A DNA stretch of 64,000 nucleotides from positions 558,001 through 622,000 of the forward strand of contig NC_042997.1 in the NCBI RefSeq assembly GCF_006345805.1, written 5' to 3'. Position 1 is the stretch's first letter, and each line of letters starts with the position of its first letter. The position numbers and the translations under genes were made by a program. This document shows, one piece after another, positions 3,088 through 57,400 of the stretch. The notes beneath the pieces were generated by a model that saw nothing but the letters and a program-made list of their open reading frames with translations, searched no databases and was not told where the DNA came from. The DNA comes from Octopus sinensis. Lineage: Eukaryota.

Positions 3088-3125
3088 CAGTACCGGTTCC
3101 GGTCATTTTGAGACCTTTTCAACTG
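3088..3125 (-). ncRNA. minimal type I hammerhead-like motif (U3:A8 core, A13G substitution)
   Basis: CAG UUGAAAA GGUC-ucaaaau-GACC GGAA CCGG UA CUG. Confidence 0.6.
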
Positions 3126-3476
3126 TAACGATTAAATAATTAAATTTAGAAAAATTAGAAGAAAAGTTTTCTTAAAAGAATATTTCTATAGTAGTGTTCA
3201 GATTTAAGTGGCATTCTGCCTTTCTCTGACTCCCTTGTTTGCACTTGTGTGTTCGAGGTAGTTGTGAGTTCTTGGTAGGGTAGTAGAGGGAAGGCTGGTG
3301 AGGAAAGGGGGTGGGAGAATCTGGGAGTGCCCTGATGGTCGTATTTTGAATGGTCAGTGGCGGCTGGCAGTCTCAGTTCAATTCAGGAGAATATTTATAT
3401 TGACAGGCTTGTTTATAGAATTAGCGTAGGTGTTATACTAAAAACATTAGTGACAAACTTAAGGGGTAGGGGGTGG

Positions 3477-3705
3477 AGAAGAAGAAGAAGAAGAAGAAGA
3501 AAGAAGAAGAAGAAGAAGAAGAAGAAGAAGGAGAAGAGAAGGAGAAGATGATGGTGATGGTGGTGATGATTATGACGACGATGATGATGATAACGATGAT
3601 GATGAAGAAGAAGGAGGAGAAGGAGAAGATGGCGGTGATGATGGTGGCGATGATGATGACGCCGATGATGATGATAACGATGATGATGAAGAAGAAGAAG
3701 AAGAA
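3477..3705. repeat. (GAA)n/(GAT)n compound microsatellite with a ~80 bp unit present twice
   Basis: GAAGGAGAAGATG...GATAACGATGATGATGAAGAAGAAG occurs twice. Confidence 0.85.
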
Positions 3706-3849
3706 AAACAGAGAAGGGAGAATATGAATGGGTGTAAATATAGCTATGAAGGGGCTGATTAGTAATGGATTCTATGGAGTGTAGTATTTGTGTGTGTATA
3801 TATATATTTTTCTTTTATTCTAAAGTTGAGGTATATTAATTGTTTGTCG

Positions 3850-4255
3850 TAGACCCTTAAGAAGTGGCTTGTATTTTGTAATAAAGAGATTTTCTTTACT
3901 TATTCTTTGTCTCGAGGTTGTATCGTCCCTAAATTGGTAGAGGGGAAAATTCTGAAGTTTGGTGTTTTTTTGTGGCGCAAGTATCTATGTGTTGCTAAAA
4001 GCTATTTTTCTGTTTTGGGGAATTTTTATCTGGGATCTGTGCAGGGTCATTCGTTTACGCAAACCAATTTTTGTTTGGCCTATGTACTGCTCTTGACACC
4101 CGGAGCAGGTTAGTGAGTATATTAGGTTCTCCGAAGCACATGTGAAGTTGCTTTTCACTGTAAACCGTTGTCCCTGTTTGAAGGAGAACTCAGAACCCTC
4201 GATTAGATAGTCGCATATCCCGCAATTGGGTCTTCCACATTTTTTTTACTGTCGG
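3850..4255 (-). pseudogene. Penelope GIY-YIG endonuclease domain
   Basis: Hand translation KCGRPNCGICDYL...NFTCASENLIYSLTCSGCQEQYIGQTKIGLRKRMTLHRSQI...KENLFITKYKP, with frameshifts. Confidence 0.9.
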
Positions 4256-4610
4256 CTTCTGTGTTGAAGAGTGAATTCGGGCTTGTGTAAGGAGACTTTT
4301 CATGGATCTAGGCTGTCTTTTGCTTTTTGATCGTGTGGTTTGGAGGATTGTGTTCATTCTGTGGTCTTTTTTTAGGAGGGGTATGTGTGGAGGATGGTGT
4401 CGAAGGCTTCGTTATTGAGAGGGTTGTGTGTTTATATATATATTATTTATATATATATATATATATATATATATATATATATAATATATATATATATATA
4501 TATATATATATTTTATATATATATATTTTATATATATATATATATGTATATATGCACAGTGGAAGAGACATACAAAAACCGTTAGATTCACTTCAACATT
4601 TAAATTTAAT

Positions 4611-4659
4611 TTGCCAAAATATTTTTGTTGCTTTGAGACCGTGATCTCTTCATTGACAA
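4611..4659 (-). ncRNA. degenerate hammerhead-like motif in a PLE terminus
   Basis: UUGUCA aUGAAGA ... UUGGCAA; core and GAAA are mutated. Confidence 0.35.
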
Positions 4660-4770
4660 GTTCAGTGAGTGGTTAACATATGCAATTCAAAACGTCAAAG
4701 AGTAGAATGTTAAGGCAGGGTGAAACTGGGGTGACCACGTGAGCGTATAAGATATAGTTGAATTTATATC

Positions 4771-54115: not shown

Positions 54116-55717
54116 ATATTTGTATGTATATGTAAGAGAGACGGACAAGCAGTCAAGCTTAGAGCCATTGCGACAAAGAAAGATACGGACGAAATTTGGC
54201 ATGTGTTCCGCCTTCCATATTCTATTCACAAGCCATTGGTTTAGATTTGTTATAGCAGAAATCTTTTTCTCATGGTGGACCATGTTCTTGCAAGAAGCTT
54301 CTCGGATCATAGTCATAGATTATATAAAATATCTTAAGGTAAAGTTACATTTCTATAAATAAAATCACAGTTATTTCCGAATCGCATTCACATTTTGTGT
54401 TTAGCATTTCTTGAAGTGTAACTATATAATCATCTCAAGAATGGGACGAAGGCATGTAGAACAACGACTCATGAAAACAGTGCTATGCCAGACTAAAAAT
54501 TTAATAAAATTTCAGTAATTAATAACAAGTCCGATTCTGAACACTAGATTTGTTAAATTAGTAGATTTTACGTGCGGCTCATACAATAATTTTCAATAAC
54601 AAAATAATAGTCTGATGAATGGTATTGTCATTTTATAGAAAGCTGAATGTCTATCCGATGTTATTTGTATAGTCAAAAACGACTTCCATGCTATAAAGAA
54701 AAATATGATAATGTTAAACCGCAATGAATTGCAGGAGTGGAGTGCTATGTTTTTGTTTAGATATGTACAAATATCTACATACCTAATTTTATAATAGCAT
54801 AATACAAGCGAAAATATTTTCATTTAAATTGTTGAATAACTACTGCAAAAATCGTTTATATTAGAGTATGTGAAAACATGTCATAATAGCAGCAAGACTA
54901 AGTGGATTTTGTGTTTCAAATAATCATTTTCGACGTCCAAGATAAGTTAATCCAACTTACACAATATCTATTATTCAATCAAAAGAAAATATGAAACCAT
55001 ATGTAAGTGCTTACGTAAGTACTTTTTCGCCTGATATTAAAATTAAATTTCTGACTTCTCTCGCGCATGGTTTCCCACGGGAAAGATTTATTATACTGGG
55101 AGCATGAATGTCTCTACCAAGGAATGGAGTTTTACACATAAATTCTATTTAGATGTGTTACGTCCACCAAAAGTAGCAGTTCGGTTAATGATCCGATGAA
55201 ATAAGGCTTTAAAAATAAGATAAAGGGATGACTTTTTCGACGAAACCCATCAAAGTGGTGCCACAGTATGGCTGCCGTCTAATGAGGGAAACGAGATAAA
55301 AGATGATAGACAAGCAGAATCAAGGAAAAGGTGATAATGACATTTTAGCAAACAGTAACTTGTTGAGTTGTGGCCTCCAACAACTTGTTAAACGACCGGC
55401 AGAGTAATAATGACTTCACTATATAAAGTAGGAATAAGAACATTATAATCAAAACTGATACTGAACAATACTATATATAAATAGAAGTCCATTGTTTTTT
55501 GTCTTTTCACTGATCTTATCTCATAGACACAGTAAACGCTGATAATAACATATCAAGCTAGTTAAAAATGTTAGGGTCTTTATTCCGGTTTACAATTATA
55601 ATTTTCAAGCAAATTGGTTATTTATTGTTTGAAGTCTATCACCTTTCAAATTACTAACCTCTTCCACTATTTCTACGTGCCGAAGAGGGAGATTCTATAA
55701 GTCAATATATATATAGA

Positions 55718-55901
55718 CAAGTACAGACAAAGGGATTAAGTCGATGATATTGACCCCACTGCGTAACTGGTATTTGTTTAATCGACCCCAAAAGAATGAA
55801 AGGCAAACAATCTCGGCGGAATTTGAAATCAGAACGTAACGCAGACGAATTACCGCTAAGCTTTACGCCCGGCGTGCTAAGGATTCTGTCAGCTCGCCGC
55901 C
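55718..55901 (-). mobile_element. SINE family A copy
   Basis: Minus strand GGCGGCGAGCTGACAGAATCCTTAGCACGCCGGGCG...GATTTCAAATTCCGCCGAG. Confidence 0.9.
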
Positions 55902-55904
55902 CTA

Positions 55905-56203
55905 AATATTCGTCCGTTATTCAATGAAAGTCAATCTAGAACTAACCTTTCTATCCGCTCAATACCCTGAAAAACATACAGGATCATATAGGTGGATGAT
56001 CTTCAAAACCAAACTGCATCTCCTCTTGTCAAGAGTACCTGAAAATCCCACTTTATGGCAGGAAACACACTTGGGGGCAGCAATATCAAACTTCCTGATT
56101 CACCAAAAGTCATGTATCAGAGGATGTTTCTTGTGGTGAAAGTGCAGCGAAGATAACGAAGGTGCCTTAGTATGTCCACAATTATTGAGCTAAAACTAAT
56201 AAA
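55905..56203 (+). mobile_element. CR1-like LINE 3' end
   Basis: IFKTKLHLLLSRVPENP (FKxxLDxxLxxVPDxP-like C-terminus); tail GGTGCCTTAGTATGTCCACA...GAGCTAAAACT. Confidence 0.65.
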
Positions 56204-56324
56204 TATATATAAATATCTATCTATATATATATATAAGCAAGGAAAAATTGTAAAAATGCAGAATGCTCAAATGAAAGAAAATTTTAATGAAATGAGAAAT
56301 TGATAAAATATATAAATATATATT

Positions 56325-56366
56325 TATTCAAACCGGTTTTCGTCATTGTATGACTTGTCAAGAATA
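56325..56366 (-). ncRNA. minimal hammerhead motif, U3:A8 core
   Basis: Exact reverse complement of 57359-57400. Confidence 0.7.
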
Positions 56367-57358
56367 TTTAGGTTAAAAAGTTTTTTAAAAATTAGAAAGG
56401 GGAAAAAAGAAAATTGCATTGTTTTTGGCAAAAGAATGATAATAAATATGTACAAAAATTAAAAAATAAGTACTCCGATATATCGTGGGTTCGTTGTGTA
56501 TCTTGAGTTTAATGATTGTTCACGAAAAAATTACCTTGAGTATTAGGATCCAATGGGATTAAGAGCATGTGTTGTTTGGTTTAATTAAGGATGTTGGCAA
56601 AACAGGAAGTAGTAGTAATTGTGGTTCTTCAGTTCCTGTGTTGTGAATAAGGGGAGACAACTCTTTTGAGTTCTTCAATAAAGGCTGTTAATAAACCCCA
56701 AATTATAAAATTATCATTTTAGCTTCATTTGCATTATCTTTTTTATATAATTGTTTGTTAACTTAACTTTCAGATTTTAACACTTTATTTATATTATTTT
56801 CTAATTATATAAATTTGCATAGACAATTGCATTTCAGATTGTTATATCATATATAATAAAAATGATAGTAATAACAACAATAGTAAAAATGATATTTGAA
56901 GAATATAAGTTTTAGCTTGAAGTGATGAATGCATGGTATCCTTATATATTTGTGTTAGTATCCTTATATACATGGTATCCTTATATATTTGTGTTAGATG
57001 AATGCATAGTATCCTTATATATTTGTGTTATAAGCTAAAACTTGTGTTATAAGCTCAAAAGAGTTGTCTCCCCATATTCACAACACAGGAACTGAGGAAC
57101 CACAATTACTACTACTTCCTGTTTTGCCAACAACCTTAATTAAACCAAACAACACATGCTCTTAATCCCATTGGATCCTAATACCTCAAGGTAATTTTTT
57201 CGTGAACAATCATTAGACTCAAGGTACACAACGAACTCACAATGTATCGGAGTACTTATTTTTTAATTTTTGTACATACTTATTATTATTCTTTTGCCAA
57301 AAACAATGCAATTTTCTTTTTTTCCCTTTCTAATTTTTAAAAAGCTTTTTAACCTAAA

Positions 57359-57400
57359 TATTCTTGACAAGTCATACAATGACGAAAACCGGTTTGAATA
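57359..57400 (+). ncRNA. minimal hammerhead motif, U3:A8 core
   Basis: UAUUC UUGACAA GUCA-uacaa-UGAC GAAA ACCGGU UU GAAUA. Confidence 0.7.

What the first reader, a model, noticed from the sequence alone, without database searches (positions are those of the whole stretch)
3088..57400. U3:A8 hammerhead core recurs in three unrelated element families
UUGAAAA (3088-3125, minus, attached to a GIY-YIG ORF), UUGAUAA (38609-38649, minus) and UUGACAA (56325/57359) have different stems but the same paired swap. Independent random decay is unlikely to give the compensatory pair three times, so this may be a lineage-enriched variant ribozyme class that CUGANGA-based searches miss (inference).
Basis: partly seen in the sequence, partly recalled or inferred. 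Interest (0 to 1): 0.72.

Follow-up and report, generated by a model that had tools for sequence, protein, structure and literature searches.

The report
Swapped-pair hammerheads dominate this genome's retroelements
The four hammerhead-shaped RNA motifs are real parts of jumping elements and carry an already published U-A swap of one core base pair; two of the three families are close relatives that likely inherited it once, the swap is the majority form in this genome, and self-cutting is predicted but untested.

Summary
Observation confirmed, novelty low. All four motifs sit at the stated coordinates, and U3:A8 is each family's founder state (82 of 85; first 100 of 482; first 100 of 1,848 copies). 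Genome-wide, after subtracting a reversed-pattern control, U3A8 makes up about 13,255 hits (78%), C3G8 2,396, and each mixed state about 700, so neutral decay is rejected. But the families are not three unrelated ones. The 3088 and 56325/57359 elements are sister Penelope-like (Neptune-type) retrotransposons (RT 54% identical) in one clade whose four sampled families all carry U3A8; 56325 and 57359 are one inverted insertion. The 38609 element is a non-coding ~360-bp retrozyme-like repeat, a second lineage. So at most two origins. The variant is published: Schistosoma Penelope elements (about 1,300 hits, with the same UUGAUAA and UUGAAAA cores) and other natural hammerheads. I did not find in print that it dominates a genome. 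It recurs in at least three Penelope lineages, with AT-rich flanks, and an amplified U3·G8 family may be a stepping stone. This scan noted these elements before on other DNA. Cleavage is untested; two window copies carry extra damage.

The parts
3088..3125 (-). F1 hammerhead-like motif, core UUGAAAA (U3 at 3122), palindromic helix III, predicted site UA; this copy has GGAA for GAAA
3014..4431 (-). 5'-truncated Penelope-like (Neptune-type) element F1: end of ORF, 3' region with hammerhead, set between (TA)n runs
   Evidence: 95% identical to L095 over 1,451 nt; sequence
3853..4431 (-). broken remnant of the CX4CXXC linker and GIY-YIG endonuclease of F1
   Evidence: tblastn to the L095 ORF; Pfam GIY-YIG E 0.002, below the curated cut-off
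38609..38649 (-). F2 hammerhead motif, core UUGAUAA (U3 at 38644), loop II CAAAUA, long helix I with internal loop, predicted site UC; palindrome damaged in this copy
38436..38758 (-). F2 non-coding retrozyme-like repeat copy, about 275 nt plus a 50-nt inverted 5' piece (38708-38758), ending in a TA run; 77-78% identical to a 360-bp tandem sister family
56325..56366 (-). F3 hammerhead-like motif, core UUGACAA (U3 at 56361), inverted arm
57359..57400 (+). F3 hammerhead-like motif, core UUGACAA (U3 at 57364), predicted site UU
56233..57837 (.). one inverted, truncated insertion of Penelope-like family F3 (arms about 56233-56959 on - and 57054-57411 on +, tail 57639-57837); no coding part left here
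   Evidence: coding copies of F3 in L098-L103

Best explanation
The motifs are terminal hammerheads of Penelope-like retrotransposons (F1, F3) and of a likely Penelope-mobilised non-coding retrozyme (F2); the U3:A8 pair was likely fixed in master elements twice, once in the F1/F3 clade and once in the retrozyme group, and then copied thousands of times. Shown: the motifs, the family-wide U3A8 state, the coding context, the kinship of F1 and F3, the separate nature of F2, the genome-wide excess of paired states. Inferred: U3:A8 keeps the tertiary Watson-Crick pair of the active fold, two copies pair through the palindromic helix III and cut the precursor RNA slowly; selection acts on the masters, while inserted copies decay neutrally. 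Inferred, weaker: AT-biased change in AT-rich 3' ends pushes C3G8 to U3A8, through a tolerated U3·G8 step.
For: Founder state: 82 of 85 F2 hits, first 100 listed of 482 F3 hits and of 1,848 F1 hits are U3A8 with positions 3, 7 and 8 left open. Genome-wide net counts 13,255 U3A8, 2,396 C3G8, 700 U3G8, 703 C3A8; independence of the two positions would give about 2,530 for each mixed state. F1 and F3 lie behind RT plus C-terminal GIY-YIG ORFs, 54% and 50% identical. Four G000 U3A8 families form a 98/96 clade whose sister group has C3G8 in 5 of 6 rows. Outside G000, 31 descriptor hits in 90 Penelope-related loci are all Watson-Crick at 3:8 (25 C3G8, 4 U3A8, 1 A3U8, 1 G3C8; reversed control 1 hit; duplicates included); U3A8 needs at least 3 origins and one clade is rejected (p-AU 8e-46). 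In the retrozyme group all 15 U3A8 rows fall in one 100/100 clade apart from a 16-row clade with 15 C3G8 rows. Palindromes of family-type copies form self-duplexes of -10.3, -6.0 and -11.9 kcal/mol. U3-A8 cores were reported active in vitro (stated in PMC3088659). Penelope lineages with A/U pairs have lower upstream GC (0.24, n=5) than those with G/C pairs (0.34, n=15), one-sided p 0.002.
Against: No cleavage or expression evidence here. Amplified mixed-state masters exist: one U3G8 family is 17 of the first 100 U3G8 rows and a C3A8 group appears in the retrozyme tree, so pairing is not strictly required for spread. Published Penelope minimal hammerheads cleave poorly in vitro. Monomer folds of F1 and F3 are no more stable than shuffles (z -0.2 to -0.8). 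The generic pattern does not test stem pairing, counts copies not families, and misses F3 (GAAAAC). The GC test uses rows that are related and were merged by hand, and the retrozyme families do not follow it (0.42-0.43 for U3A8 against 0.36-0.48). Rows for the retrozyme tree were picked from state-specific searches. Capture of the motif between the two lineages was not excluded.
Confidence: 0.75

Rival explanations
1. Three independent compensatory swaps in unrelated families mark a new, lineage-specific ribozyme class.
For: Different stems in the three families; strong enrichment in this genome; F2 is a separate lineage; three mollusc rows in the 2014 supplement are C3G8.
Against: F1 and F3 are sister families in one all-U3A8 clade; the two F3 motifs are one insertion; the variant and even the same heptamers are published for Schistosoma; it recurs in other Penelope lineages outside G000.
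Confidence: 0.07
2. The motifs are dead relics: AT-biased drift fixed U3 and A8 in masters that no longer need cleavage, and the pairing is a by-product.
For: AT-rich flanks of U3A8 Penelope lineages; both changes are C-to-T type transitions; amplified U3G8 family; GGAA and GAA forms are common among the F1 copies nearest the window's (30 of 36 motifs); Naiad elements spread without canonical hammerheads.
Against: The other core letters and both stems are kept across divergent families; G3C8 and A3U8 families exist and no unpaired state was seen in 31 outside hits; U3A8 retrozymes are not AT-rich.
Confidence: 0.13
3. U3A8 arose once in this lineage, and the retrozyme group captured the hammerhead from the Penelope clade or the reverse.
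For: A preprint argues that animal retrozymes derive from Penelope pLTRs; both element types sit in TA runs and show inverted partial copies.
Against: F2 is alignable along its length with C3G8 and U3G8 retrozymes, including helix I and loop II context, and blastn found no F2 similarity in F1, F3 or the other U3A8 Penelope loci.
Confidence: 0.05

Closest known systems
U3-A8 minimal hammerheads of Schistosoma mansoni Cercyon Penelope-like elements (Cervera and De la Pena 2014, PMC4209133; read parts 1-3 of 4 of the text and part 2 of 3 of supplementary file 2)
   Same: Type I motif in the terminal repeat of an RT plus GIY-YIG element; U3-A8 covariation; same heptamers UUGAUAA and UUGAAAA; short palindromic helix III; solo and opposite-strand pairs.
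   Different: There about 1,300 U3A8 against about 2,000 canonical; here about 13,255 against 2,396. Helix II here is 4-5 bp, and F1 and F3 lack the extra nucleotide after A9; helix III is a 6-10 nt palindrome.
Natural U3-A8 core covariation (Perreault et al. 2011, PMC3088659; read section 8 and passages)
   Same: C3-G8 replaced by U3-A8 in several natural hammerheads; the paper states such cores were already shown active in vitro.
   Different: Described there as a rare variation, not a majority form of retroelement families.
Metazoan non-LTR retrozymes (Cervera and De la Pena 2020, PMC7229834, passages; Li et al. bioRxiv 10.64898/2026.07.22.740005, abstract and section 14)
   Same: F2 and sisters are 340-363 bp non-coding units, in tandem and inverted partial copies, with a type I hammerhead with a long helix I; coexist with Penelope-like elements.
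   Different: U3A8 core; mostly dispersed one to three units; the group also holds C3G8, U3G8 and C3A8 members; circular RNA not tested.
Neptune clade of Penelope-like elements (as described in Craig et al. 2021, PMC8557442, passages)
   Same: [quoted passage not shown]
   Different: Placement against named Neptune references was not tested.

Membership tests
Penelope-like element hammerhead (F1, F3) | Motif lies in the terminal repeat behind an RT plus GIY-YIG ORF | tested here: met
Penelope-like element hammerhead (F1, F3) | Core U4 G5 A6 A9, G12 A13 A14, A15.1-U16.1, H17 | tested here: met
   Met by family-type copies and both F3 window copies; the F1 window copy has A13G
Penelope-like element hammerhead (F1, F3) | Watson-Crick pair at 3:8 | tested here: met
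   U3:A8, the published variant
Penelope-like element hammerhead (F1, F3) | Short palindromic helix III allowing dimers; G10.1-C11.1 | tested here: met
   (self-duplex -10.3 and -11.9 kcal/mol)
Penelope-like element hammerhead (F1, F3) | Extra nucleotide between 9 and 10.1 and a 7-8 bp helix II (typical in the 2014 set) | tested here: not met
   F1 and F3 start helix II directly after A9 with 4-5 bp; typical, not obligatory,
Penelope-like element hammerhead (F1, F3) | Self-cleavage | not testable with these tools
   needs an in vitro assay
Neptune clade | CX2-5CXXC linker before a C-terminal GIY-YIG domain | tested here: met
   CGRPNCGIC in F1 and CARSNCGTC in F3
Neptune clade | RT groups with named Neptune elements | not tested
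   no named references in trees
Non-LTR retrozyme (F2) | 150-450 bp non-coding unit, also in tandem | tested here: met
   F2 homology limited to about 300-500 nt in all 30 loci; sister units 357-364 bp apart
Non-LTR retrozyme (F2) | Type I hammerhead with long helix I, internal loop and 4-bp helix II | tested here: met
   fold z -2.9 and -3.0 for family and sister copies, -1.5 for the window copy; the loop-loop contact itself is inferred
Non-LTR retrozyme (F2) | Expressed as linear and circular RNA | not testable with these tools
   only assembled contigs of runs guessed to be RNA were available
Rfam hammerhead clan | Score above a gathering threshold | tested here: not met
   no hammerhead among 133 window matches or in 311 nt around F2; C3G8 sisters also missed, only two U3G8 copies hit HH9 at 29 bits against 52

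The most novel reading that the evidence does not exclude
In this genome the hammerhead core has turned over: U3:A8 has replaced C3:G8 as the standard form in two separate retroelement lineages, leaving more than 13,000 motifs invisible to CUGANGA searches. AT-biased change through a viable U3·G8 intermediate (an amplified family exists) with selection only for re-pairing would make position 3:8 a natural, repeated compensatory-evolution experiment covering all four Watson-Crick pairs.
Probability: 0.45. Interest if true: 0.5.

Novelty: new member of a known kind. Interest (0 to 1): 0.3.

Why it matters
The variant is known, so the gain is quantitative. Ribozyme censuses with a fixed CUGANGA box would miss about four fifths of the hammerhead-like motifs in this genome. 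Paired states far outnumbering unpaired ones across independent retroelement lineages is indirect evidence that Penelope hammerheads, whose function is unsettled and whose in vitro activity is low, are kept by selection on the active fold. Natural C3G8, U3G8, C3A8 and U3A8 sisters in one retrozyme group give ready-made constructs to test this.

Tried and rejected
Rfam found none of the four motifs, but it also missed C3G8 sisters, so the miss is not due to U3A8 alone. Blast-ranked copy sets favour copies like the query, so wildcard patterns were used for counts. I considered F2 to be the 3' end of a Tx1-like LINE; rejected because the LINE is flanked by a target-site duplication of the repeat's own sequence. 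No coding partner for F2 was found in six 9.9-kb loci and 30 3-kb loci. No C3G8 coding Penelope element of G000 was recovered: of 15 C3G8 loci only L215 held a distant fragment not linked to its motif, and no motif was found within 2.2 kb behind 12 fragments (whose scan also missed motifs that lie nearer or differ), so the G000 tree has no local C3G8 outgroup. The 800-kb sample gave only 6 hits, too few for frequencies. Expression: no RNA holder listed; contigs of one unit length fit circles or tandem DNA equally, so no verdict. The F1 window value in the duplex test used a wrong segment and was ignored. Rows left out of the tree: duplicates L299, L300, L360, L370, the antisense-only hit L365, the doubtful upstream U3A8 hit L367, and 65 of 90 loci without a sense hit. 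Not held and so not read: Lunse et al. 2017, Hammann et al. 2012, Przybilski and Hammann 2007; they may already report U3A8 counts for molluscs. File 1 of the 2014 supplement and the preprint's supplements were not seen. Searches for a report of U3A8 dominance in a cephalopod found none, in a library lacking most subscription papers.
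Full report
Observation. The four motifs are present as described. Each is a type I hammerhead-like fold with UUGANAA in place of CUGANGA, a 4-5 bp helix II, a purine box, a short palindrome in place of helix III, and a UH site. U3 lies at 3122 (-), 38644 (-), 56361 (-) and 57364 (+). The F1 copy has GGAA for GAAA, the F2 copy has a broken palindrome (self-duplex +0.4 against -6.0 kcal/mol for the family), and the two F3 copies are arms of one inverted insertion. Rfam reports none of them, but it also misses C3G8 relatives.

Families. With positions 3, 7 and 8 left open, exact patterns gave 85 (F2), 482 (F3) and 1,848 (F1) matches in G000, reversed controls 0. F2: 82 U3A8, 2 A3A8, 1 U3G8. 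F1 and F3: all of the first 100 listed are U3A8; the rest were not listed. So U3A8 is the founder state, not decay of single copies. This alone shows only what the master element had.

Genome-wide spectrum. A generic pattern (core, 13-17 free bases, GAAACNNGUH) gave 19,075 matches against 2,021 reversed; C3G8 2,884 against 488, U3G8 1,187 against 487, C3A8 1,036 against 333. U3A8 by subtraction is 13,968 against 713. Net: 78% U3A8, 14% C3G8, 4% each mixed; independent change would give about 2,530 per mixed state, against about 700 seen. Of the first 100 rows, 90 are U3A8, 6 C3G8, 4 U3G8. The pattern does not test pairing, counts copies, and misses F3.

Independence. [quoted passage not shown] Four more U3A8 motif types sit beside relatives of the same ORF. 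In a tree of 25 rows, four G000 U3A8 families form a 98/96 clade whose sister group has C3G8 in 5 of 6 rows; a 46-row quick tree also puts F1 and F3 in one 7-row clade (99), with unnamed proteins of unknown state among them. F1 and F3 thus likely share one origin of the swap. F2 has no ORF, is about 300 nt here, and is 77-78% identical to a 360-bp tandem family. It aligns with C3G8, U3G8 and C3A8 repeats; with the core left out, all 15 U3A8 rows fall in one 100/100 clade of 20 rows (4 C3A8 and 1 U3G8 single copies inside), apart from a 16-row clade with 15 C3G8 rows and a 4-row U3G8 clade (rows chosen from state-specific searches). This is a second origin.

Outside this genome. Among 90 loci with relatives of the F1 ORF from public contig collections, 31 descriptor hits were all paired at 3:8: 25 C3G8, 4 U3A8, 1 A3U8, 1 G3C8, duplicates included, reversed control 1. 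U3A8 needs at least 3 origins on the tree, and one clade is rejected. Lineages with A/U pairs have more AT-rich upstream DNA (0.24 against 0.34 GC, p 0.002, rows not independent); the retrozymes do not follow this.

Mechanism. Shown: anatomy, context, kinship, counts. From the literature: C3-G8 is a tertiary Watson-Crick pair of the active fold (PMC3884650, passages), U3-A8 versions were reported active (PMC3088659), and Penelope minimal hammerheads work as slow dimers (PMC4209133). Inferred: tandem or neighbouring copies pair through the palindrome and cut the precursor RNA; the retrozyme unit would be released between two cuts and be mobilised by Penelope enzymes. Inferred, weaker: AT-biased change through U3·G8, for which an amplified family exists (17 of the first 100 rows). 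That same family shows that pairing is not strictly needed for spread.

Comparison with what is known. Cervera and De la Pena 2014 describe the U3-A8 covariation in Schistosoma Cercyon elements, found by homology because their descriptor missed it, and about 1,300 hits with a new descriptor. Their supplement lists UUGAUAA and UUGAAAA cores; of 44 rows in the part I read, 2 are U3A8, 1 U3G8 and 41 C3G8, including all three mollusc rows, though that search was built on C3G8. I found no report of U3A8 as the majority form in a genome, but three key papers were not held. Earlier notes of this scan describe the same elements in this and other genomes.

Verdict. Real, more than chance, and enriched here, but a known variant in known element types, with two origins at most instead of three. 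New member of a known kind; interest 0.3.

Noticed in passing
L209, L231-L260, L281-L292 (e.g. G000:C1:12340500-12350400); L211; L215: A young Tx1/L1-like LINE (zinc-knuckle ORF1; endonuclease, RT, zinc finger ORF2) inserts about 30 nt upstream of the hammerhead core of the F2 sister repeat: 26 of 30 best copies have an intact motif behind them, one a damaged motif, two a second LINE after the target piece, one lies in a TA run. Every 5' end seen has the same 17-18 nt duplication. Related LINEs sit at the matching spot of the U3G8 and C3G8 repeats. Already noted by the scan.
   Followed up: yes
L181:9034 (-), L173:3666 (+), L377:117 (+): A G3:C8 hammerhead family in G000 (one copy G3C8, one A3C8) and one G3C8 hit outside it; one A3U8 hit in L326. 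All four Watson-Crick pairs occur.
   Followed up: partly
L211-L214, L280: Amplified retrozyme-like family with a U3·G8 core and a CpG at positions 7-8; the only motif here that Rfam HH9 scores (29 bits).
   Followed up: partly
L229, L262, L263: Retrozyme-like family with C3G8 and C3A8 copies, two C3A8 units in tandem; may be CpG decay or a mixed-state subfamily.
   Followed up: partly
L001-L030: F1 copies nearest the window's copy have GAA (18), GGAA (12), GAAA (5) or CGAA (1) in the purine box; could be a damaged subfamily or assembly indels.
   Followed up: partly
window 10557-12162 and 4799-6148: Two more long inverted-repeat insertions; the second begins next to the truncated 5' end of the F1 element. 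Not identified.
   Followed up: no
window 62555-62981: Fragment of a Tx1/L1-like ORF2 C-terminus.
   Followed up: no
L293-L302: Penelope-like ORFs with hammerheads lie on short contigs filed in prokaryote genome bins, likely eukaryotic contamination.
   Followed up: no
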